Shown one piece after another: positions 1,321-31,282 of a stretch of DNA of 45,185 nucleotides; the stretch's first letter is position 1; every line of letters begins with the position of its first letter. Under the pieces are notes generated by a model. The model saw only the letters and a list, made by a program, of their open reading frames with translations. It did not search any database and had not been told where the DNA came from. Position numbers and translations under genes: made by a program. Source of the stretch: Escherichia phage LL11; sequence record NC_048064.1; one strand, given 5' to 3'.

Positions 1321-1413
1321 GATGGTAGCTTCTTAGTCTGGATAGGTTAAACCTAGGAGATTCTCTTGAGTCTCCTATAATGTAACCTAACTAACTAAAT
1401 GAGGATTAATAAC

Positions 1414-1767
1414 ATGGCTATGTCTAATATGACTTACTCTCAGGTTTACAACACCGCTCATGCTGCATTAGTTGAACGTATCTGGAATGATGATATTGAT
1501 TGTATCGATAACGCACATGATGCAATCCATGAGGTAGCGGACAGTGCTGTACCAATCTATTATGCTGACATCTTCTCAGTGATGGCGAGTGAAGGCATCG
1601 ACCACTTCTTCGAGGATTCTGGCTTAATGCCAGACACTAAGGATGTGACGGTCGTACTACAAGCCCGTATTTATGAACAACTCACCATTGATTTATGGGA
1701 ACGTGTTCAATATATGATTATTGCGTACACCAATTACGCTGAGGATTCAGAAGAAGAGGCAGAATAA
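1414..1767 (+). CDS. ocr: Ocr-like DNA-mimic anti-restriction protein (T7 gp0.3 family)
   Basis: Translation from ATG 1414 (GAGGA 8 nt upstream): MAMSNMTY...[52 protein letters not shown]... with acidic tail; long blocks match T7 Ocr as I remember it; the track start at 1399 is probably too far upstream. Confidence 0.85.
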
Positions 1768-1769
1768 GG

Positions 1770-1883
1770 ATGGAAAAGCAATATAACTTTATCTTTTCAG
1801 ACGGTGTAACCCTGAAGTGTTCCCTACGATTCGCACAAATTCGTGAGGAAGTACTAGGCACTACATACAAACTATTTAGCTGA
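1770..1883 (+). CDS. hypothetical small protein (37 aa)
   Basis: ATG 1770 just after the Ocr stop with AAGGA upstream; MEKQYNFIFSDGVTLKCSLRFAQIREEVLGTTYKLFS. Confidence 0.25.
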   Translation: MEKQYNFIFSDGVTLKCSLRFAQIREEVLGTTYKLFS

Positions 1884-1896
1884 CACTATAAGAGAA
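1874..1896 (+). promoter_or_regulatory. degenerate phage-RNAP promoter-like sequence (ATTTAGCTGACACTATAAGAGAA)
   Basis: Matches the SP6-type core at -17 to -2 but has A instead of G at the expected +1. Confidence 0.25.
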
Positions 1897-1959: not shown

Positions 1960-2187
1960 ATGGATTTAGATAGCATCATTATGGCATTTGCTCTTATTGG
2001 CTTAAGCTGGTGCTCCTATCACCTTTACCGTGAGTTCTTATTTGATAAAGCTAAACGCAAACTAAGAAAGGAAGGCGGTAATTACCTTTGTGTAAGAGGT
2101 GGGCTTGTAGAATACATTGCACCTAACGGCACGGAATGCTCCATTAGCAAAGATGCATTTATAGAGACGTGGCATTACATCAAGTAA
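1960..2187 (+). CDS. hypothetical early protein with hydrophobic N-terminus (75 aa)
   Basis: ORF track; N-terminal segment IIMAFALIGLSWCSY looks membrane-spanning; RBS GGAG upstream. Confidence 0.45.
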   Translation: MDLDSIIMAFALIGLSWCSYHLYREFLFDKAKRKLRKEGGNYLCVRGGLVEYIAPNGTECSISKDAFIETWHYIK

Positions 2188-2251
2188 CTAGCCTATAGCC
2201 TGCCTGTGTGGGCTATGTGATATTTACTTATCATTATATAAGGTGACTATT

Positions 2252-3178
2252 ATGACTACTGAAAACATCCTCCTCCTGTCTGTCCGTGAAGCTGCAACCG
2301 CTGAGATTAAGCAGCATTTGGATAATATCGGCACTTCTTACATCAAAGTAGGTGCTTGTCTGAATGAGTTACGCGGAGACTTCGAAGGTCAAAAAGAGTT
2401 CTTAGCCTATGTTGAAGCAGAGTTTGCCATCAAGAAGGCACAATGCTACAAGCTGATGAGTGTAGCCCGTGTCTTTGAAGGAGACGAACGCTTTAAAGGT
2501 GTGGCTATGCGTGTAATGCTGGCGCTTGTTCCTTTCGCTGATGAAAATATAATCATGGAGAAGGCCGCAGAACTCGCCGCAGATGGCAAGCTGGACACTA
2601 ATGCCGTAAATGCCTTGATTGACCCTAAGAAAGAGACGAAGGCTGAGACGATACAAACTAAGCCTAAGACAGTAAAACCGCAGGAGAACGCGACTGAGGC
2701 CGCAGAAACTATGCAAGGACATGCAACCTTTGAGGATTTCATCTTAGAGAAGGCGAAAGAGGAATTACAAAGTGTGCCGCCAGCAAGTGAGTCGGGTAAC
2801 GACGAATCCGCACCGTGGGAAGATGAAAGCAAGCCGGAAGACACAAAGGCAGCGCCGCTGGATAACACGGCTAATACTGAGAGTGCCGCTATTGCTGGTC
2901 TGCTGGCACAAATTAAAGCACTGACTGAGCAATTACAGGCAGCAAATGACCGCATCGCCTCCTTAAGTAGCGCACGCGAAAGCAAGAAGGCAGCCGCGCC
3001 TATGCTGCCGCAATTCAAATCTTCCTGCTTCTATGCTCGCTTAGGTTTAAGCGCTGAGGAGGCAACGAAGAAAACAGCAGTTAACAAGGCACGCCGCGAA
3101 CTGGTTAAGCTGGGATACGGTGAAGGCCATGAGGCATGGCCCTTAATCTCTGAGGCAGTAGAAGAGTTGACTAAGTAA
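2252..3178 (+). CDS. hypothetical early protein (about 308 aa) in the position of T7 gene 0.7, no kinase motifs seen
   Basis: Long ORF directly upstream of the RNAP gene; ATG 2252 with AAGGTGA RBS (track start 2243 is a GTG); helical N-terminal domain, acidic low-complexity linker, coiled-coil segment. Confidence 0.6.
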   Translation: MTTENILLLSVREAATAEIKQHLDNIGTSYIKVGACLNELRGDFEGQKEFLAYVEAEFAIKKAQCYKLMSVARVFEGDERFKGVAMRVMLALVPFADENIIMEKAAELAADGKLDTNAVNALIDPKKETKAETIQTKPKTVKPQENATEAAETMQGHATFEDFILEKAKEELQSVPPASESGNDESAPWEDESKPEDTKAAPLDNTANTESAAIAGLLAQIKALTEQLQAANDRIASLSSARESKKAAAPMLPQFKSSCFYARLGLSAEEATKKTAVNKARRELVKLGYGEGHEAWPLISEAVEELTK

Positions 3179-3241
3179 CCTTATCGGTGGCATCTTCTTA
3201 GGTGTCACCTATTAAGGTTTCTTTCACTAGGAGTAAACAAG

Positions 3242-5869
3242 ATGCAAGACCTACACGCTATTCAACTTCAACTTGAAGAAGAAATGTTTAACGGCGGTAT
3301 CCGTCGCTTTGAAGCGGACCAACAACGCCAGATTGCATCCGGTAATGAATCTGACACGGCATGGAATCGCCGCTTATTGTCCGAACTAATCGCACCTATG
3401 GCGGAAGGTATTCAGGCTTATAAAGAAGAGTACGAAGGAAAGCGCGGTCGTGCACCACGTGCATTGGCTTTCATTAACTGCGTAGAAAATGAAGTGGCAG
3501 CATATATCACGATGAAAATCGTTATGGATATGCTGAACACGGATGTAACCTTGCAGGCTATAGCCATGAATGTAGCTGACCGCATTGAGGACCAAGTACG
3601 TTTTAGCAAGCTGGAAGGTCACGCCGCCAAATACTTTGAGAAAGTTAAGAAGTCGCTTAAGGCAAGTAAGACTAAATCATATCGCCATGCGCACAACGTA
3701 GCGGTCGTGGCTGAGAAGTCAGTAGCGGACCGTGACGCTGATTTCTCTCGCTGGGAGGCGTGGCCTAAAGATACCTTGCTACAAATCGGTATGACCTTGC
3801 TAGAAATACTGGAAAATAGTGTATTCTTCAATGGTCAGCCTGTCTTTCTTCGCACCTTGCGCACTAATGGTGGCAAGCATGGCGTTTACTACTTACAGAC
3901 TAGCGAACACGTGGGTGAATGGATAACTGCATTTAAAGAGCACGTAGCTCAGCTGAGTCCAGCCTATGCGCCTTGCGTTATTCCTCCTCGTCCGTGGGTT
4001 TCTCCGTTTAATGGTGGCTTCCATACCGAGAAGGTGGCGAGTCGTATTCGTCTGGTTAAAGGAAACCGCGAGCACGTCCGCAAGTTGACCAAAAAGCAAA
4101 TGCCAGCGGTTTACAAGGCTGTTAACGCTTTGCAGGCGACTAAGTGGCAGGTTAATAAAGAGGTTTTGCAGGTAGTAGAGGACGTTATCCGTCTCGACCT
4201 TGGTTATGGTGTGCCTTCCTTTAAACCACTCATCGACCGTGAGAACAAGCCAGCTAATCCAGTGCCGTTAGAGTTCCAGCACCTGCGAGGCCGTGAACTT
4301 AAAGAGATGCTAACGCCGGAACAATGGCAAGCCTTCATCAACTGGAAAGGCGAATGTACCAAGCTGTATACCGCTGAAACTAAGCGCGGCAGCAAGTCGG
4401 CGGCAACCGTTCGCATGGTCGGGCAGGCCCGTAAATACAGCCAGTTTGACGCAATATACTTCGTGTATGCACTGGATAGCCGTTCGCGCGTTTATGCGCA
4501 ATCTAGCACGCTCTCGCCGCAATCAAACGACTTAGGCAAGGCATTGCTCCGTTTTACCGAAGGGCAGCGTCTTGATAGCGCTGAGGCGCTTAAGTGGTTT
4601 TTGGTGAACGGGGCGAATAACTGGGGCTGGGATAAGAAAACTTTTGACGTGCGTACCGCTAACGTGCTGGATGGCGAATTTCAAGACATGTGCCGCGACA
4701 TTGCAGCCGACCCGCTGACCTTCACTCAATGGGTAAATGCTGATTCCCCTTATGGCTTCCTTGCATGGTGCTTTGAATATGCGCGTTATCTGGATGCACT
4801 GGACGAAGGAACGCAAGACCAATTCATGACGCACCTACCCGTCCATCAAGATGGTAGTTGCTCTGGTATCCAGCACTATAGCGCGATGTTACGAGATGAA
4901 GTAGGTGCGAAAGCAGTAAACCTTAAGCCTTCTGACTCCCCTCAAGATATTTATGGCGCGGTTGCGCAGGTTGTTATCCAGAAGAATTACGCCTACATGA
5001 ATGCAGACGACGCAGTGACTTTCACATCCGGAAGCGTCACACTTACAGGTGCAGAACTGCGTAGCATGGCTAGTGCGTGGGATATGATAGGAATCACTCG
5101 CGGCCTGACCAAAAAGCCCGTAATGACACTACCTTATGGCAGCACACGTCTAACCTGCCGTGAGTCAGTGATTGATTATATCGTTGATTTAGAAGAAAAA
5201 GAGGCCCAACGGGCTATTGCGGAAGGGCGTACCGCCAATCCTGTACACCCTTTTGATAATGACCGTAAAGACAGCCTGACACCTAGCGCAGCTTATAACT
5301 ATATGACAGCTTTAATCTGGCCTTCTATTTCGGAAGTGGTTAAAGCTCCTATAGTGGCAATGAAAATGATTCGTCAGCTTGCCCGTTTCGCAGCTAAAAG
5401 GAATGAAGGCCTAGAGTATACCCTGCCTACTGGCTTCATCTTGCAACAAAAGATTATGGCGACAGATATGCTCCGCGTATCTACTTGCTTGATGGGAGAA
5501 ATCAAGATGAGTCTACAGATTGAAACGGACGTAGTGGATGAAACGGCTATGATGGGCGCTGCTGCTCCTAACTTTGTGCATGGTCATGATGCCAGTCACC
5601 TTATCTTAACGGTCTGCGACCTTGTTGATAAAGGGATTACATCTATCGCAGTAATTCATGATTCTTTTGGCACTCATGCAGGCCGTACAGCCGATCTACG
5701 CAACAGCTTAAGGGCAGAAATGGTGAAAATGTATCAAGGCCGTAATGCACTGCAAAGCCTGCTAGATGAGCACGAAGAACGCTGGTTAGTTGATACAGGA
5801 ATCCAAGTACCAGAGCAAGGGGAGTTTGACCTTAACGAAATCTTAGTTTCAGACTATTGCTTCGCATAA
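3242..5869 (+). CDS. single-subunit DNA-directed RNA polymerase (SP6/K1-5 type)
   Basis: 875 aa; N-terminus [32 protein letters not shown]... and motifs [17 protein letters not shown] and [10 protein letters not shown] match my memory of SP6 RNAP; AGGAG RBS; cognate promoters throughout the window. Confidence 0.97.
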
Positions 5870-5877
5870 TATTAATA

Positions 5878-5907
5878 GGCCATTCCTTCGGGAGTGGCCT
5901 TTCTTTT
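5878..5907 (+). terminator. rho-independent terminator after the RNAP gene
   Basis: GGCCATTCC-TTCG-GGAGTGGCC stem-loop (UUCG tetraloop) followed by TTTCTTTT. Confidence 0.7.
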
Positions 5908-5942: not shown

Positions 5943-5958
5943 GTCTCACACGTGAGAC
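5943..5958 (+). repeat. hairpin palindrome GTCTCAC-NN-GTGAGAC (family copy 1)
   Basis: GTCTCACACGTGAGAC immediately upstream of promoter 5961. Confidence 0.7.
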
Positions 5959-5960
5959 TT

Positions 5961-5983
5961 ATTTACCGGACACTATAGGATAA
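5961..5983 (+). promoter_or_regulatory. phage RNAP promoter (ATTTACCGGACACTATAGGATAA)
   Basis: Match to the window consensus ATTTACTGGACACTATAGAAGAG; first promoter downstream of the RNAP gene. Confidence 0.7.
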
Positions 5984-6123
5984 CCGTCGGAGACGGAGAG
6001 AGAAGGGAAGATAAGGATATAAAGGAAGTAATAGGTATTAAAGGTTATATAGGTTTACCTAGGAATACCTATTACCTTCTTCCTTCCTCTTATTACTACT
6101 TAGAGGAAGGGCAGACCTAAGTT
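5984..6123 (+). other. structured AT/purine-rich region between tandem phage promoters; candidate primary replication origin
   Basis: Inverted repeat GGAAGTAATAGGTATT ... AATACCTATTACCTTCC, purine-rich arm GGAGAGAGAAGGGAAG facing pyrimidine-rich arm CTTCTTCCTTCCTCTT, small hairpin CCGTCGGAGACGG; flanked by promoters at 5961 and 6145. Confidence 0.35.
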
Positions 6124-6139
6124 GTCTCACATGTGAGAC
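6124..6139 (+). repeat. hairpin palindrome (family copy 2)
   Basis: GTCTCACATGTGAGAC, perfect 16-bp palindrome, just upstream of promoter 6145. Confidence 0.7.
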
Positions 6140-6144
6140 TTCGT

Positions 6145-6167
6145 ATTTACCGGACAGTATAGATAAG
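6145..6167 (+). promoter_or_regulatory. phage RNAP promoter variant (ATTTACCGGACAGTATAGATAAG)
   Basis: Consensus match except C to G at -5; upstream of the gp1.1-like ORF. Confidence 0.5.
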
Positions 6168-6324: not shown

Positions 6325-6762
6325 ATGGAGATATGGATGCCAGTGCTAGGGCATGAATCCTACCACGTATCAAACCTAGGCCGTGTACGAGGAAAGAATG
6401 GTAAAATCCTTAAAGCAGGCTATGCAAGAGGTTACTTAAATGTTGTATTAGACAACAAGACGTACCCTGTTCATAGACTTGTGGCTTTATCTTTCGTAGA
6501 CGGTTACGCACCTGGGTTGGTTGTCAATCATATAGATGAATGTAAACATCATAATTTTGCATTTAATTTAGAATGGGTGACACAAGCTGCTAACGTAGAA
6601 CACAGTTTGGCAACAGACTTTGTAGTGCTCGACCCTGCTGGCGTAAAATATAAAGGGCGCAACGCCTCACGATTTGCACGAGAACACGGTTTATGCCCTC
6701 GCACTTTTCGTAAAATGTTGGCTGGTCAAATTTCTCACCATAAAGGTTGGACTAAAGTATGA
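6325..6762 (+). CDS. HNH homing endonuclease (paralog 1 of 3)
   Basis: 145 aa; N-terminal MEIWMPVLGHESYHVSNLGRVRG, HRLVA motif, NH...H..N HNH core, C-terminal HHKGW; paralogous to 10030-10509 and 44079-44540. Confidence 0.8.
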   Translation: MEIWMPVLGHESYHVSNLGRVRGKNGKILKAGYARGYLNVVLDNKTYPVHRLVALSFVDGYAPGLVVNHIDECKHHNFAFNLEWVTQAANVEHSLATDFVVLDPAGVKYKGRNASRFAREHGLCPRTFRKMLAGQISHHKGWTKV

Positions 6763-8747
6763 GCATTATTCAAAACGTTGGTTGTCCTGAGTGCATGAAG
6801 AACAACCACGATAAATCGCAGAACCACTTGATGATTTTCTCCGACGGGGCTGGTTACTGCAACCGTGCACACTTCCATGATAGTGGCAGACCATACTACC
6901 ATAAGCCCGAAGGTGGCATCGAGATAACCGAGTTGCCTATTACTGGCAATATCAAATACACACCTTCTCAATTCAAAGAGATGGAGAAGGAAGGGAAGAT
7001 AAGCGACCCTAAGCTACGCGCCATCGCTCTTGGTGGTATGCGTATGAAAGATCGTTGGGAGGTCATGAATGAGCAAGAAAGGGCAGACCAAGAAGCAGAG
7101 TGGAAACTTGATGTTGAATGGTTCCTCACGCTTAAGCGTAAGAACCTTGTTTCCAGACACATTCGCGGCGACATTTGCGCATTGTATGATGTACGTGTCG
7201 GACACGATGAAGAGGGTAGAGTCTCGCGGCATTACTATCCACGCTTCGAGAAAGGTGAGCTAGTAGGAGCTAAGTGTCGCACATTACCTAAAGACTTTAA
7301 GTTTGGTCATTTAGGTAAACTCTTTGGTATGCAAGATCTTTTCGGTATGAATACTTTGTCTCACGTGTTAGACAAGGGGAGACGAAAGGATTGCTTGCTT
7401 ATTGTGGGTGGGGAACTGGATGCGCTAGCAGCGCAGCAGATGCTCCTTGATTCTGCCAAGGGTACTAAGTGGGAAGGTCAACCTTACCATGTATGGTCTG
7501 TTAACAAAGGGGAGTCTTGCCTTGAAGAGATTGTGCAGAACCGTGAACACATCGCCCAATTCAAGAAGATTATTTGGGGCTTCGATGGGGATGAGGTAGG
7601 GCAGAAGCAGAACCAGCAAGCGGCTCGCCTGTTTCCTGGCAAATCCTATATCCTTGAGTACCCTTCTGGTTGCAAAGATGCCAACAAGGCATTGATGGCT
7701 GGCAAGGCTAAAGAGTTTGTTGATGCATGGTTTAATGCCAAGTCATCTGATGAAGTCTTTGGTAGCCAGATTAAATCTATCGCATCTCAAAGGGATAAGC
7801 TCAAGGCTGCACGTCCAGAGCAAGGACTATCATGGCCTTGGCCTAAGCTGAACAAGGTAACGCTAGGTATTCGTAAGAACCAGCTTATCATTATAGGTGC
7901 AGGCTCTGGTGTAGGTAAGACTGAGTTCCTTCGTGAAGTAGTTAAGCACCTCATTGAAGAACACGGTGAATCTGTAGGCATCATTTCTACAGAAGACCCG
8001 ATGGTCAAGGTGTCCCGTGCTTTTATCGGCAAGTGGATTGATAAGCGTATTGAGTTACCGCCAACCAACGACCCGAAAGAAGATGGATACCGTGAGGTGT
8101 TCGACTACACCGAGGAAGAAGCTAACGCCGCCATTGATTATGTAGCTGATACAGGTAAGCTGTTTGTGGCTGACCTAGAGGGTGACTATTCGATGGAAAA
8201 GGTAGAGCAAACTTGCCTAGAGTTTGAGGCTATGGGCATTTCTAATATCATCATTGATAACTTAACGGGGATTAAATTAGATGAGCGTGCTTTTGGTGGG
8301 AAGGTTGGTGCACTTGATGAATGCGTCAAGCGGATTGGTACTATCAAAGACAGACATGCAGTTACTATATTCCTTGTATCACACCTTACACGTCCTCCGG
8401 CAAACCGTACCCAACACGAAGAAGGTGGCGAGGTTATCCTTTCTGACTTCCGAGGCTCAGGAGCTATCGGATTCTGGGCATCTTACGCCTTGGGGATTGA
8501 GCGTAACACAAGAGCTGAAACGCTTGATGAAAGAACTACCACGTACATCTCATGTGTCAAAGACCGCGACCAAGGTATCTGGACTGGAACCAAGGTCATG
8601 CTTAAGGGTGACATTCAAACCGGACGTTTAATGGAACCACAAGCCCGTACTAAGTCATTTGATACAGGTGAAGCAAGGCAACAAGAAGTGCCTGATTTAC
8701 CGGACACTATAGAAGAGACTAACTTCGATGAAGAAAGTGAGTTTTGA
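6759..8747 (+). CDS. DNA primase/helicase (T7 gp4-like)
   Basis: 662 aa; N-terminal zinc motif CPEC...C..AH, Walker A GAGSGVGKTE, DnaB-like C-terminal half; acidic C-terminus ending ...EESEF. Confidence 0.9.
   Translation: MSIIQNVGCPECMKNNHDKSQNHLMIFSDGAGYCNRAHFHDSGRPYYHKPEGGIEITELPITGNIKYTPSQFKEMEKEGKISDPKLRAIALGGMRMKDRWEVMNEQERADQEAEWKLDVEWFLTLKRKNLVSRHIRGDICALYDVRVGHDEEGRVSRHYYPRFEKGELVGAKCRTLPKDFKFGHLGKLFGMQDLFGMNTLSHVLDKGRRKDCLLIVGGELDALAAQQMLLDSAKGTKWEGQPYHVWSVNKGESCLEEIVQNREHIAQFKKIIWGFDGDEVGQKQNQQAARLFPGKSYILEYPSGCKDANKALMAGKAKEFVDAWFNAKSSDEVFGSQIKSIASQRDKLKAARPEQGLSWPWPKLNKVTLGIRKNQLIIIGAGSGVGKTEFLREVVKHLIEEHGESVGIISTEDPMVKVSRAFIGKWIDKRIELPPTNDPKEDGYREVFDYTEEEANAAIDYVADTGKLFVADLEGDYSMEKVEQTCLEFEAMGISNIIIDNLTGIKLDERAFGGKVGALDECVKRIGTIKDRHAVTIFLVSHLTRPPANRTQHEEGGEVILSDFRGSGAIGFWASYALGIERNTRAETLDERTTTYISCVKDRDQGIWTGTKVMLKGDIQTGRLMEPQARTKSFDTGEARQQEVPDLPDTIEETNFDEESEF
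8695..8717 (+). promoter_or_regulatory. phage RNAP promoter inside the 3' end of the helicase gene
   Basis: ATTTACCGGACACTATAGAAGAG. Confidence 0.65.
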
Positions 8748-8767
8748 TTAGTGTATTTATCAGGGCT

Positions 8768-8785
8768 TGTCTCACATGTGAGACA
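8768..8785 (+). repeat. hairpin palindrome (family copy 3)
   Basis: TGTCTCACATGTGAGACA, 21 nt after the helicase stop. Confidence 0.7.
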
Positions 8786-8823
8786 GGCTCTTATTAAGTA
8801 CATTAAATAACTGGAGATTGATT

Positions 8824-9736: not shown

Positions 9737-9902
9737 ACATAGTCTTAAAATGTTCGATGGTCATGAAGACCTGCAAGCCAAGATTACTAACCAAGCCTTC
9801 CTGTTCGCACAGTTAACTATGGCTGAAGCAAAGAAGAATAGCCTGACGCGTGAACAGGTTATCAAGGAAAGTGAAGTGAAACGTAAGATTCGCAGTCGAT
9901 AA
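9726..9902 (+). CDS. hypothetical small protein (58 aa)
   Basis: ORF overlapping the previous stop; MQNKHSLKMFDGHEDLQAKITNQ...; start uncertain (internal ATG 9750 possible). Confidence 0.3.
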   Translation: MQNKHSLKMFDGHEDLQAKITNQAFLFAQLTMAEAKKNSLTREQVIKESEVKRKIRSR

Positions 9903-9911
9903 GTCAAGGGT

Positions 9912-9929
9912 TGTCTCACGTGTGAGACA
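9912..9929 (+). repeat. hairpin palindrome (family copy 4)
   Basis: TGTCTCACGTGTGAGACA with extended GGG/CCT flanks, directly after the stop at 9902. Confidence 0.7.
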
Positions 9930-9962
9930 GCCTTTCATCATATTGATTGGAGGATTAACTTT

Positions 9963-10070
9963 ATGAATAACTACGACTCTGATTGGGATTTCTACGATTC
10001 AATGCAATCTAAACCAGAAAGGAGGGAGGATGAGTTCGAAACAGATCAAATGTACGAGGATTTTTACTAA
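9963..10070 (+). CDS. hypothetical small acidic protein (35 aa)
   Basis: ATG 9963 with GGAGGA RBS; overlaps the start of the following HNH gene in another frame. Confidence 0.25.
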   Translation: MNNYDSDWDFYDSMQSKPERREDEFETDQMYEDFY

Positions 10071-14902: not shown

Positions 14903-14918
14903 GTCTCACGTGTGAGAC
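14903..14918 (+). repeat. hairpin palindrome (family copy 5)
   Basis: GTCTCACGTGTGAGAC, 2 nt after the stop at 14901 and 16 nt before promoter 14934. Confidence 0.7.
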
Positions 14919-14933
14919 AAATCGGTGTCCGGT

Positions 14934-14956
14934 ATTTACTGGACACTATAGAAGAG
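14934..14956 (+). promoter_or_regulatory. phage RNAP promoter (exact window consensus)
   Basis: ATTTACTGGACACTATAGAAGAG. Confidence 0.8.
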
Positions 14957-28272: not shown

Positions 28273-31215
28273 ATGGCAATTGAACGTCAAGCTGTACAAG
28301 GTTTAGAAAGAGTACAGTCAAGGGTCGCGCCAACACCTATGTCTTTCACACCACGACAAGTGAGTATCTCAGGGGGCGCTGATGCCTCCGGTAGTAGATT
28401 TTTGGAAGACTTAGTAAACGCCGCAAGTAGTGTGGCTGATGTCACTACTGCTATCCTTAATCAGCAAGTAGAAGACGATAAGGTTCGCCAGATGGATAGG
28501 GCTTTGTCTGGCATGATGCCTTCTGAGGATGCCACGGTAGGCGGTGCTCGTGCTCATATGCTGGTTAGTTTACAAAATGATGTAATCTCACAGACAACTG
28601 CGCTACAAGCAGAAGCACAGCGATTTCAAGGTAGTGACGAGGATTGGGAAAACTATGTAGTTCAATCTCGTAATGAGGTACAAAATAGGTTATGGCAAAG
28701 TTATCCAGAGCTTCGTGGTGACAAAGATTCTATGAGGCTTGTCACTAACGCGTTCATGGAGCAGCAACCTAGAATTACTGCAACTAGAGCAGAGGCTAAA
28801 CTTCGTCAAGAAGAAGAAGCACGAATGCAATCTATGCAGTCTCGTATTATCATGGCTACAAGGGACGTAGCGCCAGATGCCACTGGTGCAGCTCTTATCC
28901 AGCTACAAAAAGAAGCACTGGCGATGGGTCTTAGTAAACCTGAGTTTGATCAAATGGTTGCTAAGATTGCATCTGAAAGAGCGGCAGTAGGAGATGATAG
29001 TCTTATTCAGGGAACCAAGGCATTGGTGGATGATAAGGGTGTCTCTTTGTATGACCGTGTTGGTGCTTTGCAAACTGGAGAAATTCAAGCTAACAGAACT
29101 TGGGCTGCTCAGAATCAGGTTGCCCTCTTCGAGAAGAAAGATGCAGCTATAAAGGCATTCGATGCAGGGCAACTTACTCGCGAAGAGTTACTTCAGGTGA
29201 TGCAGAATCACAATGAATTGACTGGTGGCACTGCTTGGTCTGATAGCGAGATCAAGGCTATCTTCGATAGGCAAGCTAAGGTTAATGCAGAGAAAGCAAA
29301 GCTAGAAGATCTTATTGCACGAGGTGAATCTGGGTCACCTTTAGGCTTACAGGACATTAGTAAGGATGACAGAAAGACATATGCTGAAGCCTTAGTTAGT
29401 ACCTACACTAAGCTGGCAGAAGATGAAATTGCCCGTACTGGTGCAACGGGAGAACAGGCTGAAGCTATTCGCGGTAGGTATGAGCAGATGCGTTATCTTA
29501 AATTGGGTCAACAGCTTATTGAAGACCCGATCATTAAGGAAAGGTATTCGTCGCTTATGCAGCTATCCTCTGCCAACCTCAAGGATATGAATGTTGAACC
29601 TGAAGCACTGCAAACTATCATGCGAGCACGTGATTCTATTCCAGAGGATGCACGTCGTGCTGTTATGGGAGACAAAGAATATGCCTTTGTTGAGAACTAT
29701 GACTTAGCAACTCGCATGGGGTATAACACAGGTCAAGCTATTGAGTTTGCACAGAATGCCTCTCGCGGCGAGAAATTACAAGGTTCTGTGCTCAAAGAAC
29801 TTAATGATGATGTAGATGGAGTAGTTAGTGACATTGCAGGAGGCAGCTGGCTCACTTTTGGTGATAACATGAGTGAAATGGGACGTGACATTATGATGGA
29901 GGAGGCAAGTACAATTGCTAGAGCAATGAAGGTTGCAGGCCATAATAATGACACTATTAAGCGTCACCTTAAATCCTACCTTACAAGCCAGTATACACAA
30001 TTATCAGAAGGTTTCTTTACTCAAGGTGTTCTTGTAAAAGGAGACATTCGTACGTTAGGAGATACTATAGGAGTAAACCAAGGAGACGTCCCAATTACTC
30101 TCCGTCAGTACCTAGATAATAACAAACAAGCCCTGCTAGATGCATCAGGTGGGTTAGAGGAAGGCGACCTATATTTTGATGTAGATGCGAAGCGCGGCCT
30201 CTTTACTATACGTGCAGGCTCTGGTCGTGTGCCTGTTACACAGGCAATGCCTTTGTCTGAAATCAAAGGGCAATCCTTGCTTAAGCAACGGTATGATGCA
30301 GAGGTTAAAGCACGTGATGAAGGGCGTAAGAACTTTGAAGCACAACAAATGCGAATGTGGGGCGCAGGTGGCTACCAAGCACAACCACCTGCAAAGACTA
30401 CAGCCAAAACTGTAGGCTCACGTGGGATTGCTGACTTCTTAATGTCACCTGCCTTTGCATCAGGCGAGAATCTACCAGCAAACTTTGAGTTCGGATATAA
30501 GAGAAATAATATGGACTTCTACAATTATGTAGCCAAGATGGAGAATAATGCCAATGTAGGTTTTGACCGAGTAGCTGGTGTTTATACACCATACAAAGAT
30601 GCACATGGTCAGTCTGTAGGGTACGGTCACTTCCTTACTACTGAAGAGAAGAAGAACGGATACATTATGATTGGTACAGAGAAAGTGCCATTCACTCCGG
30701 GACAATCTCAATTAACACCAGAACGAGCCATGCGCCTTCTACAGCAAGACTTGAAGGGTCATGTGCCAAGTACTTCAGGATGGGCTGTTCCCTTCGAAGA
30801 GATGCACCCAGGTGTTCAGCGTGGCCTTATGGACTTGTCCTATAATTTAGGAAAAAGCGGGATCCAGAATGCTCCTAAGGCATACGCTGCATTTAAGGCT
30901 GGCAAGTTTACTGATGGCTTCATCGAGATGCTATCTACTGCATCTACTGAAGGCAAGCGCAGCACTGGATTGTTAGTTCGTAGGGCGGAAGCTTATAACC
31001 TTGCACAGAGTGGTGGTGCTATCCCTAAGATTAGTGAAGTGGAGACACGAGCAGATGGATCTATGTATGTGAAGTTTGCAGGACAGATGTCAGAGGCTTT
31101 CGTAAATAAATCAATCTACAATCAGATTGGTAAGGATGGGTGGATGCAAGTGTATCCTCCAAAGCAAGGTGCACTTGCACCTGACACTCAGATTGGTAGA
31201 ATCAAACTGAGCTAG
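28273..31215 (+). CDS. internal virion protein B with C-terminal lysozyme-like (muramidase) domain
   Basis: 980 aa; C-terminal region VGYGHFLTTEEKKNGY ... GLMDLSYNLG has the look of a GH24 lysozyme-type domain. Confidence 0.75.
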   Translation: MAIERQAVQGLERVQSRVAPTPMSFTPRQVSISGGADASGSRFLEDLVNAASSVADVTTAILNQQVEDDKVRQMDRALSGMMPSEDATVGGARAHMLVSLQNDVISQTTALQAEAQRFQGSDEDWENYVVQSRNEVQNRLWQSYPELRGDKDSMRLVTNAFMEQQPRITATRAEAKLRQEEEARMQSMQSRIIMATRDVAPDATGAALIQLQKEALAMGLSKPEFDQMVAKIASERAAVGDDSLIQGTKALVDDKGVSLYDRVGALQTGEIQANRTWAAQNQVALFEKKDAAIKAFDAGQLTREELLQVMQNHNELTGGTAWSDSEIKAIFDRQAKVNAEKAKLEDLIARGESGSPLGLQDISKDDRKTYAEALVSTYTKLAEDEIARTGATGEQAEAIRGRYEQMRYLKLGQQLIEDPIIKERYSSLMQLSSANLKDMNVEPEALQTIMRARDSIPEDARRAVMGDKEYAFVENYDLATRMGYNTGQAIEFAQNASRGEKLQGSVLKELNDDVDGVVSDIAGGSWLTFGDNMSEMGRDIMMEEASTIARAMKVAGHNNDTIKRHLKSYLTSQYTQLSEGFFTQGVLVKGDIRTLGDTIGVNQGDVPITLRQYLDNNKQALLDASGGLEEGDLYFDVDAKRGLFTIRAGSGRVPVTQAMPLSEIKGQSLLKQRYDAEVKARDEGRKNFEAQQMRMWGAGGYQAQPPAKTTAKTVGSRGIADFLMSPAFASGENLPANFEFGYKRNNMDFYNYVAKMENNANVGFDRVAGVYTPYKDAHGQSVGYGHFLTTEEKKNGYIMIGTEKVPFTPGQSQLTPERAMRLLQQDLKGHVPSTSGWAVPFEEMHPGVQRGLMDLSYNLGKSGIQNAPKAYAAFKAGKFTDGFIEMLSTASTEGKRSTGLLVRRAEAYNLAQSGGAIPKISEVETRADGSMYVKFAGQMSEAFVNKSIYNQIGKDGWMQVYPPKQGALAPDTQIGRIKLS

Positions 31216-31216
31216 T

Positions 31217-31260
31217 GTTATACTCAAGGTTTGTCTCACATGTGAGACATGCCTTTATGA
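31217..31260 (+). promoter_or_regulatory. conserved stop-adjacent element GTTATACTCAAGGT-hairpin-GCCTTTATGAAT (copy 2)
   Basis: Same flanking boxes as 13257-13297; here the hairpin is the palindrome TGTCTCACATGTGAGACA (31232-31249, family copy 6). Confidence 0.5.
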
Positions 31261-31282
31261 ATGACATTAATTAGGAGGTAAC

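What the first reader, a model, noticed from the sequence alone, without database searches (positions are those of the whole stretch)
2252..3178. Large early protein of unknown function where T7 has its protein kinase
This roughly 308-aa protein precedes the RNAP gene but shows no kinase motifs. It has a helical N-terminal domain, an acidic proline-rich linker (PASESGNDESAPWEDESKPEDTK) and a coiled-coil segment. It is a candidate host-takeover or anti-defence factor.
Basis: inference. Interest (0 to 1): 0.45.

Follow-up and report, generated by a model that had tools for sequence, protein, structure and literature searches.

The report
Phage DNA-site binder with J-like tail
The unannotated early gene just before the phage RNA polymerase gene most likely encodes a protein that binds a 16-base palindrome repeated along the phage's own genome and carries a degenerate chaperone-type (J-like) domain, so it looks like a hidden regulator of the phage's own programme, not a kinase substitute or anti-defence factor.

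Summary
The ORF is real: 2252-3178, + strand, 308 aa. The window is a K1E/SP6-like Vectrevirus, and the gene is the K1E gp6 homologue (PHROG 4571, function unknown), conserved near the RNA polymerase gene in 212 phage records. No database names a function.

Structure prediction and profile searches give two folded domains.
- The N-domain (residues 8-126) has the ParB/KorB-type helix-turn-helix DNA-binding fold (DUF3102-like).
- The C-domain (residues 250-308) is a J-domain homologue that has lost the HPD motif (G-E-G here).
- Between them lie an acidic disordered linker with a conserved P[FW][DE] motif and one long helix.

The main new result is a covariation. Every lineage examined that carries this gene (with enough flanking DNA) has its own repeated palindrome, GTC-N4-(N2-3)-N4'-GAC. 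The window has seven copies of GTCTCAC-RY-GTGAGAC. The palindrome type tracks residues 64 and 67 of the predicted recognition helix: K67 goes with GTCTCAC and N67 with GTCCAAC, 15/15 against 13/13. Two neighbouring proteins show no such column. T7, K1F, phiKMV and KP34 lack both the gene and the palindromes.

The best reading is a site-specific binder of the phage's own DNA, probably regulating middle transcription or replication. The anti-defence reading has no support. All of this is computational.

The parts
2252..3178 (+). CDS of the 308-aa early protein (K1E gp6 homologue, PHROG 4571). An alternative GTG start lies at 2243.
   Evidence: ORF list; AAGGTG at 2240-2245, six bases before the ATG; PHROG 4571 at E = 3e-127; 212 phage records with full-length homologues.
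2273..2629 (+). N-terminal domain, residues 8-126: six-helix ParB/KorB-type helix-turn-helix DNA-binding fold (DUF3102-like).
2432..2476 (+). Predicted recognition helix, residues 61-75 (KKAQCYKLMSVARVF). Q64 and K67 (codon 2450-2452) are the candidate specificity positions.
   Evidence: Helices 47-58 and 62-75 in the model. Residue 67 is the only strict column separating palindrome classes A and B. Positions 63, 64 and 67 vary across the family while K62, Y66 and L68 are conserved.
2630..2878 (+). Acidic, low-confidence linker, residues 127-209. It contains the short motif A-P188-W189-E190 (2813-2821).
   Evidence: pLDDT 44-61. An acidic-flanked P[FW][DE] motif occurs in the linker of 37 of 119 members, always as the only copy in the protein.
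2879..2983 (+). Single long helix, residues 210-244 (probable coiled coil or dimerisation element).
   Evidence: AF2 helix 210-244; weak coiled-coil-type Pfam hits over 198-269. Dimerisation is inferred.
2999..3175 (+). C-terminal J-like domain, residues 250-308, preceded by the conserved PMLPQF motif (2999-3016). The HPD position is occupied by G290-E291-G292 (3119-3127).
5943..5958 (.). Palindrome GTCTCAC-AC-GTGAGAC, at -35 to -20 of the phage promoter at 5961-5980, just after the early terminator (5877-5900).
   Evidence: The orthologous site in class-B relatives carries GTCCAAC..GTTGGAC between the same flanks.
6124..6139 (.). Palindrome GTCTCAC-AT-GTGAGAC, 5 bases upstream of the promoter-like site at 6145-6164. 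With the 5943 site it brackets a purine-rich, AT-rich stretch.
7358..7373 (.). One-mismatch copy, GTCTCACGTGTTAGAC, inside the primase-helicase gene (codes LSHVLD).
   Evidence: The orthologous position in L017 is a perfect class-B palindrome coding LSNVLD. A perfect class-A copy in this frame would create a TGA stop.
8769..8784 (.). Palindrome at the tip of a long two-tier RNA-foldable hairpin, after the primase gene.
   Evidence: RNA fold -27.9 kcal/mol, z = -7.9.
9913..9928 (.). Palindrome at the tip of a long hairpin, intergenic, upstream of the ORF at 10030.
   Evidence: fold z = -6.1; flanks conserved in L017 and L025 with the palindrome swapped.
14903..14918 (.). Palindrome 15 bases upstream of the phage promoter at 14934-14953.
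   Evidence: no extended RNA structure (z = -0.65).
31233..31248 (.). Palindrome at the tip of a long hairpin, intergenic in the late region.
   Evidence: fold z = -4.9.

Best explanation
The gene encodes a phage-specific, site-specific DNA-binding adaptor. Its N-terminal ParB/KorB-type helix-turn-helix domain most likely binds, probably as a dimer, the phage's own 16-bp palindrome GTCTCAC-RY-GTGAGAC. That palindrome occurs seven times in this genome: directly upstream of three middle-region phage promoters, two of them bracketing the AT-rich stretch just after the RNA polymerase gene; at the tips of three intergenic hairpins; and once inside the primase gene. Residues 64 and 67 of the recognition helix appear to set which palindrome is read. 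The rest of the protein is an acidic linker with a P-W-E motif, a long helix, and a J-like domain that has lost the HPD motif. That part would then hold or recruit a partner at these sites without the canonical J-domain stimulation of DnaK. The most likely role is control of the early-to-middle switch on the phage genome, through transcription from the first phage promoters and/or replication start there. Shown here: the domain folds, the loss of HPD, the palindrome family, and the residue-palindrome covariation. Inferred: actual binding, dimerisation, the identity of the partner, and the regulatory outcome.
For: Folds.
- DUF3102 is hit by 39 of 119 relatives.
- The C-domain matches J domains by structure and by profile. 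Its HPD position reads GEG, and HPD is present in 1 of 117 members.

Cis element.
- GTCTCACNNGTGAGAC occurs 7 times in the window against 0.16 expected.
- All lineages with the gene and enough sequence carry a repeated GTC-N4..N4'-GAC palindrome of one class.
- Gene-negative T7, phiKMV, KP34 and K1F carry none.

Covariation.
- Residue 67 is K in 15/15 class-A proteins (GTCTCAC) and N or H in 13/13 class-B proteins (GTCCAAC). It is the only column that is conserved within each class and different between them.
- The same test gives no such column in the RNA polymerase or the primase.
- Y64/R67 goes with GTCTAC[AC], W64/R67 with GTCTAGT, and W64/K67 with GTCTCT.
- Contigs fetched afterwards for four members whose helix type already had an assigned half-site all showed it, two as perfect copies and two only in 6-of-7 sites.
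- In a tree built without the helix columns, the K67 Vectrevirus proteins sit inside the N67 clade. Residue and palindrome therefore switched together more than once.

Orthologous sites keep their flanks but swap both arms of the palindrome.

DNA versus RNA.
- Position 7 stays complementary although only 2 bases separate the arms, which an RNA hairpin cannot use.
- The centre is almost always R-Y.

Position.
- 24% of 116 distinct sites lie 10-45 bases upstream of a phage promoter core, against 1.3% of background positions.
Against: - No binding experiment exists; everything is comparative.
- Three of the seven window sites cap long, very stable RNA-foldable hairpins that resemble T7 RNase III sites. 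Flanks across 115 sites show excess complementarity, including G-U pairs. An RNA-level role is therefore real or at least not excluded.
- SP6 has the gene but only two palindrome copies.
- One member tested afterwards (P0160: S63, Q64, R67) showed only one imperfect site, of the GTCTCAC type.
- Gene-positive phages form related subfamilies, so presence/absence alone is confounded by ancestry. Other phage proteins apart from two controls were not tested for covariation.
- The function of the J-like domain and of the linker motif is unknown.
Confidence: 0.6

Rival explanations
1. Host-takeover or anti-defence factor. The protein acts on host components, for example by docking on DnaK or another host protein through the J-like domain or the acidic motif, and does not act on phage DNA.
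For: It is an early gene in the host-transcribed region between ocr and the RNA polymerase gene, ahead of an early terminator at 5877-5900. It has a J-domain-derived module. A phage J-domain protein acting on DnaK and sigma-32 is known: Rki of RB43 (PMC3486835, listed).
Against: There is no match in PADLOC or any defence-related family. The gene is conserved in a fixed position across phages of eight host genera, unlike typical accessory anti-defence genes. HPD, which canonical J-domain action on Hsp70 requires, is absent. The recognition-helix residue co-varies with a cis element of the phage genome.
Confidence: 0.12
2. The palindromes are purely RNA elements, the cores of RNase III-type processing or stabilising hairpins as in T7. 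The protein has an unrelated target, and the covariation is hitch-hiking.
For: The sites at 8769, 9913 and 31233 cap two-tier hairpins with z scores of -4.9 to -7.9. Flank complementarity with G-U pairs is enriched. The sites are intergenic, like the T7 RNase III sites, which also sit next to promoters (positions recalled from memory; the T7 record fetched lists promoters but no RNase III sites).
Against: Host RNase III does not explain identical arms in all copies within a genome, lineage-specific classes, or a single co-varying residue in a helix-turn-helix when two control proteins show none. The promoter-proximal copies have no extended structure (z about 0). Complementarity at position 7 with a 2-base spacer is useless in RNA. 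Copies are kept inside coding regions at the cost of amino-acid changes.
Confidence: 0.12
3. The protein recognises the palindrome as an RNA hairpin rather than as duplex DNA, and controls processing, stability or translation of phage messages.
For: Several sites lie just 5' of ribosome-binding sites. Several sit on long RNA stems. The covariation does not by itself distinguish DNA from RNA.
Against: The fold matches duplex-DNA-binding domains of the ParB superfamily. A quarter of the sites are directly upstream of promoters. Two-fold symmetry extends through the centre.
Confidence: 0.08
4. A working J-domain co-chaperone that delivers DnaK to DNA-bound complexes and stimulates its ATPase, in the manner of the large T antigen J domain.
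For: The J fold and the helix II motif K-A-[YR]-R-x-L are kept. One distant member (P0241) still has HPD.
Against: HPD is replaced by G-E-G in this protein and is absent from 116 of 117 relatives. Established knowledge of J domains is that HPD is required for Hsp70 ATPase stimulation.
Confidence: 0.05

Closest known systems
KorB (plasmid RK2) and the ParB/Spo0J/SopB DNA-binding domains
   Different: About 11% sequence identity. There is no N-terminal ParB/CTPase domain, because the protein starts directly with the DNA-binding domain. The C-terminal dimerisation domain is replaced by a long helix plus a J-like domain. It is a lytic-phage early gene, not a partition or plasmid-control gene.
Pfam DUF3102 (PF11300)
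   Same: 39 of 119 family members hit this model, best E = 1.5e-7. The sequence pattern of the helix-turn-helix region is the same.
   Different: The window protein itself does not reach E = 1. DUF3102 has no assigned function, and only three papers in the searched library mention it (none was read).
J-like domains without HPD (Tim16/Pam16) and canonical J domains (DnaJ, DNAJA1, Tim14)
   Different: Helix IV is missing. Instead a conserved P-x-L-P-Q-F segment precedes helix I. The loop reads G-Y-G-E-G-H. The partner is unknown.
SV40 large T antigen; E. coli CbpA
   Different: Those J domains have HPD and act through Hsp70. Their DNA-binding domains are unrelated to this one. This comparison is drawn from memory and was not tested further.
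Rki of phage RB43
   Same: It is the described phage-encoded J-domain protein (PMC3486835).
   Different: As I recall, Rki is a small J-domain protein that acts through DnaK on sigma-32; only its abstract was seen here. This protein has no HPD and carries a DNA-binding domain.
T7 gp0.7 protein kinase
   Same: The position immediately upstream of the RNA polymerase gene in the early region is shared.
   Different: There is no kinase domain or motif. phi-A318 has both genes.

Membership tests
J-domain proteins (Pfam DnaJ, PF00226) | J-domain fold: helix II / helix III hairpin with a short helix I | tested here: met
J-domain proteins (Pfam DnaJ, PF00226) | Sequence-profile similarity to J domains | tested here: met
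   A profile of the C-domain hits PDB J domains almost exclusively, best E = 2e-5. hhalign to DnaJ 1-76: 89%, E = 2.3e-6. Pfam DnaJ is hit in 12 of 119 members, but not in the window protein itself.
J-domain proteins (Pfam DnaJ, PF00226) | His-Pro-Asp tripeptide in the loop between helices II and III | tested here: not met
   The loop reads L-G-Y-G-E-G-H. HPD is found in 1 of 117 family members, and NPD in one more.
J-domain proteins (Pfam DnaJ, PF00226) | Stimulation of Hsp70/DnaK ATPase | not testable with these tools
   Needs a biochemical assay.
ParB/KorB-type DNA-binding domain (DUF3102-like) | Helical domain containing a helix-turn-helix, with the ParB/KorB DNA-binding-domain topology | tested here: met
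ParB/KorB-type DNA-binding domain (DUF3102-like) | Significant match to the Pfam DUF3102 model | tested here: inconclusive
   The window protein has no hit at E <= 1. 39 of 119 relatives do, best E = 1.5e-7. The domain profile finds no PDB sequence.
ParB/KorB-type DNA-binding domain (DUF3102-like) | N-terminal ParB/Srx-type CTP-binding domain | tested here: not met
   The fold starts at residue 8 with the DNA-binding domain, and there is no such Pfam hit. It is therefore not a full ParB or KorB.
ParB/KorB-type DNA-binding domain (DUF3102-like) | Cognate palindromic operator present in the replicon | tested here: met
   There are seven copies of a 16-bp palindrome against 0.16 expected. The palindrome class co-varies with residues 64 and 67 of the recognition helix.
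ParB/KorB-type DNA-binding domain (DUF3102-like) | Direct sequence-specific DNA binding | not testable with these tools
   Needs a gel-shift assay, ChIP-seq or a co-structure.
T7 gp0.7-type protein kinase | Kinase catalytic domain or motifs | tested here: not met
   No kinase family in Pfam, NCBIfam or PDB sequence searches. Both folded domains are assigned to other folds.
PHROG 4571 | Full-length match to the family profile | tested here: met
   E = 3e-127, residues 4-308 against profile positions 3-287 of 289. The family has no annotated function.
Known anti-defence or defence-associated proteins | Match to a described family | tested here: not met
   PADLOC gives nothing. The PHROG category is 'unknown function'. 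There is no plasmid homologue.

The most novel reading that the evidence does not exclude
SP6/K1E-like and related phages (Molineuxvirinae, Colwellvirinae, Gajwadongvirus and metagenomic relatives) share an unrecognised regulatory layer. An early protein, built from a ParB/KorB-type DNA reader and an HPD-less J-like domain, marks a lineage-specific 16-17 bp palindrome at the first phage promoters (a possible origin region), at intergenic processing hairpins, and even inside the polymerase and primase genes. A simple two-residue code (positions 64 and 67) sets which palindrome is read. The J-like domain and the acidic P[FW][DE] motif tether a partner there, such as DnaK, the phage RNA polymerase or replisome parts. 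The protein would thereby time middle transcription and replication in phages that appear to lack counterparts of the T7 regulators gp0.7 and gp2 (no gp0.7-type kinase lies before the RNA polymerase gene here; gp2 and gp3.5 were not searched for).
Probability: 0.3. Interest if true: 0.8.

Novelty: new variant of a known kind. Interest (0 to 1): 0.62.

Why it matters
SP6-, K1E- and K1-5-type phages are widely used, as the source of SP6 RNA polymerase and as capsule-targeting therapy phages. Yet how they order their gene expression after the polymerase is made is poorly known. As far as I recall, they lack counterparts of the T7 regulators gp0.7 and gp2, which was not searched here.

A conserved early protein paired with a conserved cis element gives a concrete, testable handle on that question. 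The analysis predicts the binding site, the residues that read it, and a specificity swap (K67N should move the preference from GTCTCAC to GTCCAAC).

It would also add a naturally varied set of helix-operator pairs of the ParB/KorB type that could be used as orthogonal parts. It would be a second kind of phage J-domain derivative, one that has abandoned HPD. It also corrects the misleading GenBank names this gene carries.

Tried and rejected
Searches that found nothing for the window protein:
- Pfam.
- PDB sequences.
- NCBIfam: only a 13-bit SMC coiled-coil hit.
- PADLOC.
- tblastn against plasmids.
- A profile of the N-domain against PDB sequences.
- Rfam at gathering thresholds over the whole window.

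A 12-sequence alignment worked.

Literature:
- Genome papers on SP6-like phages and on phi-A318 list the gene as unknown.
- Searches for the palindrome, for DUF3102 and for phage J-domain proteins gave nothing on this protein.
- A paper on a Gifsy prophage defence gene mentions SP6 only for its tailspike.

Ideas considered and dropped or left open:
- Kinase analogue: no motifs, and both genes coexist in phi-A318.
- The linker motif as a mimic of the SSB C-terminal tip (DDIPF). Some relatives read D-D-I-P-F-D, but the motif is internal whereas, as I recall, SSB-tip binding needs the free C-terminus. Not tested.
- A T7-type primase recognition site (GTC) as the reason for the GTC ends. The flanks do not fit the known pentamers.
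- Host regulator boxes (CRP, MetJ and others, from memory) do not match the palindrome.
- Simple association of the sites with promoters inside the window alone is not strong, because both are confined to the small intergenic space. The cross-genome count was used instead.
Full report
The window is a complete or near-complete genome of a K1E/K1-5-type phage (Vectrevirus, SP6-like group). The region 2000-3400 is 92-95% identical to Escherichia phages AAPEc6, K1E and relatives. The ORF runs from 2243/2252 to 3178 on the + strand. The ATG at 2252 has AAGGTG six bases upstream, giving 308 aa. The RNA polymerase gene follows at 3242-5869, and a strong terminator-like hairpin lies at 5877-5900. Host-type promoter-like sites lie at 76 and 991. 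The gene therefore belongs to the early region, in the place gene 0.7 occupies in T7. A phage-promoter-like site at 1874 (3 mismatches) suggests it may also be read by the phage polymerase. No kinase family is detected.

**It is a real, conserved gene without a name.**
It matches PHROG 4571 ('unknown function') over its whole length at E = 3e-127. tblastn finds it in 212 phage records, in all of them over at least 80% of its length. All listed records are 43-47 kb, and those fetched are Autographiviridae, from Escherichia, Klebsiella, Salmonella (SP6, 63%), Proteus, Pectobacterium, Erwinia, Vibrio and Pseudomonas hosts. An exhaustive search of 1.8 billion representative proteins finds 128 clusters. 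In ECBP5, phi-A318, Achelous, Erwinia S2 and VEN it lies zero to two genes upstream of the RNA polymerase gene. phi-A318 has a kinase gene as well, so this gene is not a substitute for the kinase. Pfam, PDB sequences, NCBIfam, PADLOC and the plasmid collection give nothing for the window protein. Genome papers list it as unknown.

**Domain anatomy.**
AlphaFold2 with a 119-sequence alignment gives four parts:
- a confident helical N-domain (residues about 8-126);
- a low-confidence acidic linker (about 127-209);
- one long helix (210-244);
- a confident small C-domain (250-308).

Scanning all family members against Pfam gives DUF3102 in 39 of 119 and DnaJ in 12 of 119.

C-domain:
- A profile of 54 C-domains hits J domains almost exclusively in the PDB, best E = 2e-5.
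- It aligns to E. coli DnaJ at 89% probability.
- The alignment puts G-E-G where J domains have H-P-D. HPD survives in only 1 of 117 relatives.
- The domain is therefore J-derived but not a canonical co-chaperone module.
- A conserved P-x-L-P-Q-F segment precedes helix I in 94 of 117 members.

N-domain:
- There is no ParB-type N-terminal nucleotide-binding domain.

Linker:
- It is poorly conserved except for an acidic-flanked P[FW][DE] motif (A-P-W-E here). The motif is present in the linker of 37 of 119 relatives and is then the only copy in the protein.

**A repeated palindrome in the genome.**
While reading the region after the polymerase gene I noticed GTCTCAC-RY-GTGAGAC. It occurs seven times in the window, one copy with a mismatch, against 0.16 expected. 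The positions fall into three contexts:
- Upstream of promoters: 5943 (-35 to -20 of the phage promoter at 5961), 6124 (5 bases before the promoter-like site at 6145) and 14903 (15 bases before the promoter at 14934).
- At the tips of long intergenic hairpins: 8769, 9913 and 31233.
- Inside the primase gene: 7358.

The same arms recur in Erwinia phage S2, Vibrio phages VEN and phi-A318, and Pseudomonas phage Achelous. In the last three the spacer is 3 bases.

Other lineages that carry the gene have a different palindrome of the same form:
- GTCCAAC..GTTGGAC in SP6 (two copies only) and in loci that correspond to Salmonella BP12B, Pectobacterium PP1 and, by similarity, Klebsiella and Proteus relatives;
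- GTCTACA..TGTAGAC in L036 (ten copies);
- GTCTAGT..ACTAGAC in ECBP5-like loci.

T7, K1F, phiKMV and KP34 lack the gene and have no repeated palindrome of this kind.

**Covariation with the recognition helix.**
I aligned the proteins from 33 loci, 28 of them in the two main classes (15 GTCTCAC, 13 GTCCAAC). I then asked which columns are conserved within each class and different between them. Exactly one column qualifies: residue 67, the sixth residue of the second helix of the helix-turn-helix (K-K-A-Q-C-Y-K67-L-M). It is K in 15/15 of the first class and N (12) or H (SP6) in 13/13 of the second. The same test on the RNA polymerase (989 columns) and the primase-helicase (772 columns) gives no such column.

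The other classes differ at 64 and 67:
- Y64/R67 goes with GTCTAC[AC];
- W64/R67 goes with GTCTAGT.

Across the family, positions 63, 64 and 67 are the variable ones on an otherwise conserved helix.

A tree built without the helix columns puts the K67 Vectrevirus proteins inside the N67 clade. They are 76-79% identical to N67 proteins, but only 37-45% identical to the other K67 proteins. Residue and palindrome therefore changed together at least twice, so this is not simple shared ancestry.

Contigs fetched afterwards for further members gave these results:
- P0163 (W64, R67): three perfect GTCTAGT copies, as predicted.
- P0146 (Y64, R67): two perfect GTCTACC copies in 2 kb.
- P0192 (Y64, R67): one 6-of-7 site with a GTCTACC half-site.
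- P0171 (Q64, K67): three 6-of-7 sites in 2.8 kb, each with a GTCTCAC half-site.
- P0148 (W64, K67): a new variant, GTCTCT..GGAGAC, four copies. It shares GTCTC with the K67 class.
- P0198 and P0225 (Q64, N67): one perfect GTCTAAC copy each. These share A at position 5 and AC at positions 6-7 with the N67/Q64 class.
- P0160 (S63, Q64, R67): unclear, with one imperfect site.

The emerging pattern is as follows. For residue 67, K goes with ..TC.., N with ..[CT]A.., and R with ..TA... For residue 64, Q goes with AC, Y with C[AC], and W with GT or T[TC]. This pattern is an inference from these cases.

**Orthologous sites swap as cassettes.**
The site before the first promoter after the polymerase gene keeps its flanks (cctgtaacatttcattaaca ... 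promoter) in the window, in L017 and in SP6, while both arms change class. The same holds for the second site there and for the 9913-type hairpin. The copy inside the primase gene is a perfect GTCCAACGTGTTGGAC in L017, coding LSNVLD. In the window it is GTCTCACGTGTTAGAC, coding LSHVLD. A perfect class-A copy would create a TGA stop in that frame, which explains the one mismatch. A further conserved copy lies inside the polymerase gene of L017, Erwinia S2, VEN, phi-A318 and Achelous. It has decayed in the window.

**DNA or RNA?**
Three window sites (8769, 9913, 31233) cap two-tier hairpins with folding z scores of -4.9 to -7.9. In form these resemble T7 RNase III sites. The three promoter-proximal sites have no structure beyond the palindrome itself. 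Over 115 distinct sites the flanks show T/A at -1/+1, excess Watson-Crick pairing at flank positions 3-7 (35-39% against 25%), and excess G-U at flank 2. Some sites therefore very likely also work as RNA hairpins.

Three points argue against a purely RNA element:
- The arms are identical in all copies within a genome, and the classes are lineage-specific and co-vary with the protein.
- Position 7 stays complementary although only two bases separate the arms.
- The centre is R-Y in 85 of 92 two-base spacers, which is two-fold symmetry through the dyad, as expected for a dimer on duplex DNA.

Across genomes, 24% of 116 distinct sites lie 10-45 bases upstream of a phage promoter core, against 1.3% of background positions. 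Another 6% lie just upstream of TTGACA. Rfam has nothing here.

**Most likely mechanism.**
- Shown: the protein has a ParB/KorB-type DNA-binding fold and an HPD-less J-like domain. The phage carries a repeated palindrome whose sequence tracks two residues of the predicted recognition helix.
- Inferred: the protein binds these palindromes as a dimer, with the long helix as the likely dimerisation element. Its C-terminal half then holds a partner at the sites.
- The best-conserved sites sit at the first phage promoters after the polymerase gene. In the window they bracket a purine-rich, AT-rich stretch (5980-6120), the place where T7 has its primary origin (established knowledge of T7). I therefore favour control of the start of middle transcription and/or replication.
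- I cannot separate activation, repression, origin function or coupling to RNA processing.
- The J-like domain cannot act as a canonical DnaK activator. It may bind DnaK unproductively, bind a J protein as Tim16 binds Tim14, or bind a phage protein.

**Comparison with the known, and novelty.**
The closest known parts are the KorB/ParB DNA-binding domains, DUF3102, and J-like domains such as Tim16. The closest architectural analogies, a J domain plus DNA binding, are large T antigen and CbpA. It is not a member of the J-domain co-chaperones, because the HPD test fails. It is not a ParB or KorB proper, because it has no CTP-binding domain. It is not a kinase. Neither the protein's domain make-up nor the palindrome family was found described in the searched literature. 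I rate it a new variant of a known kind: a site-specific helix-turn-helix regulator with its operators, in an unusual fusion and an unstudied phage family.

**Limits.**
- Nothing here is experimental.
- Sites from related phages are not independent.
- Only two control proteins were tested for covariation.
- SP6 has few sites, and one member tested afterwards was unclear.
- The RNA role of part of the sites is real or likely.
- Overall confidence that the protein reads these palindromes is about 0.6. Confidence in the specific regulatory role is lower.

Noticed in passing
window 1399-1767 (+): An ocr (T7 gp0.3-type DNA mimic, anti-restriction) homologue lies in the early region: Pfam ocr at E = 2.3e-42.
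   Followed up: partly
window 6325-6762 (+): A NUMOD4/HNH homing-endonuclease-like ORF lies between the RNA polymerase and primase-helicase genes. Erwinia S2 also has an HNH gene at this place.
   Followed up: partly
window 5980-6120: A purine-rich, AT-rich stretch with a large imperfect inverted repeat (gaagggaagataagga ... tccttcttccttcc) lies between two phage promoters, each preceded by the palindrome. Its position matches that of the T7 primary replication origin, so it is a candidate origin.
   Followed up: no
window 8750-8805, 9893-9950, 31213-31270: Two-tier RNA hairpins (lower stem, internal loop, 13-bp upper stem) with z scores of -4.9 to -7.9. They resemble T7 RNase III processing sites, and the palindrome forms their tip.
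   Followed up: partly
window 1874-1893: A phage-promoter-like site, ATTTAGCTGACACTATAAGA (3 mismatches), lies inside the 'early' region, upstream of the 75-aa ORF at 1960-2187 and of the target gene. The target may therefore also be transcribed by the phage polymerase.
   Followed up: no
window 2194-2217 and 3187-3213: Hairpins flank the target gene on both sides: TATAGCCTGCC..GGGCTATG, and GGTGGCA..TGTCACC seen by eye. They may be processing or attenuation sites.
   Followed up: no
window 8720-8747 (end of the primase-helicase ORF): The primase-helicase ends in an acidic tail with a terminal aromatic residue (NFDEESEF), like T7 gp4. The target's linker motif (acidic-x-P-W-E) is a similar acidic-aromatic peptide, but internal.
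   Followed up: no
GenBank records KY295891/NC_047806, KY295893, MN384978, OQ729741, OR594181: Orthologues of this gene carry unsupported product names: 'andolysin', 'endolysin', 'late transcription factor VLTF-4', 'periplasmatic protein' and 'similar to DNA polymerase'.
   Followed up: partly
L017 12349; L005 5470; L006 4636; L002 4686; L003 5246: A palindrome copy lies inside the RNA polymerase gene: at the orthologous place in L017, Erwinia S2, VEN and phi-A318, and also within the Achelous polymerase gene (orthology not checked). In the 2-base-spacer phages it codes S-[HN]-V-L-D. The same peptide and palindrome recur in the primase gene.
   Followed up: partly
L006 571; L003 444; L036 6761 and 7242: In Vibrio, Pseudomonas and metagenomic relatives, palindrome copies sit 8-45 bases upstream of host-type TTGACA boxes near the genome's left end. 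This hints at feedback on early transcription. No such copy exists in the window.
   Followed up: no
P0129-P0248: Many distant family members carry an extra 70-150-residue N-terminal extension before the DNA-binding domain. Its function is unknown. One member (P0241) retains a true HPD J domain.
   Followed up: no
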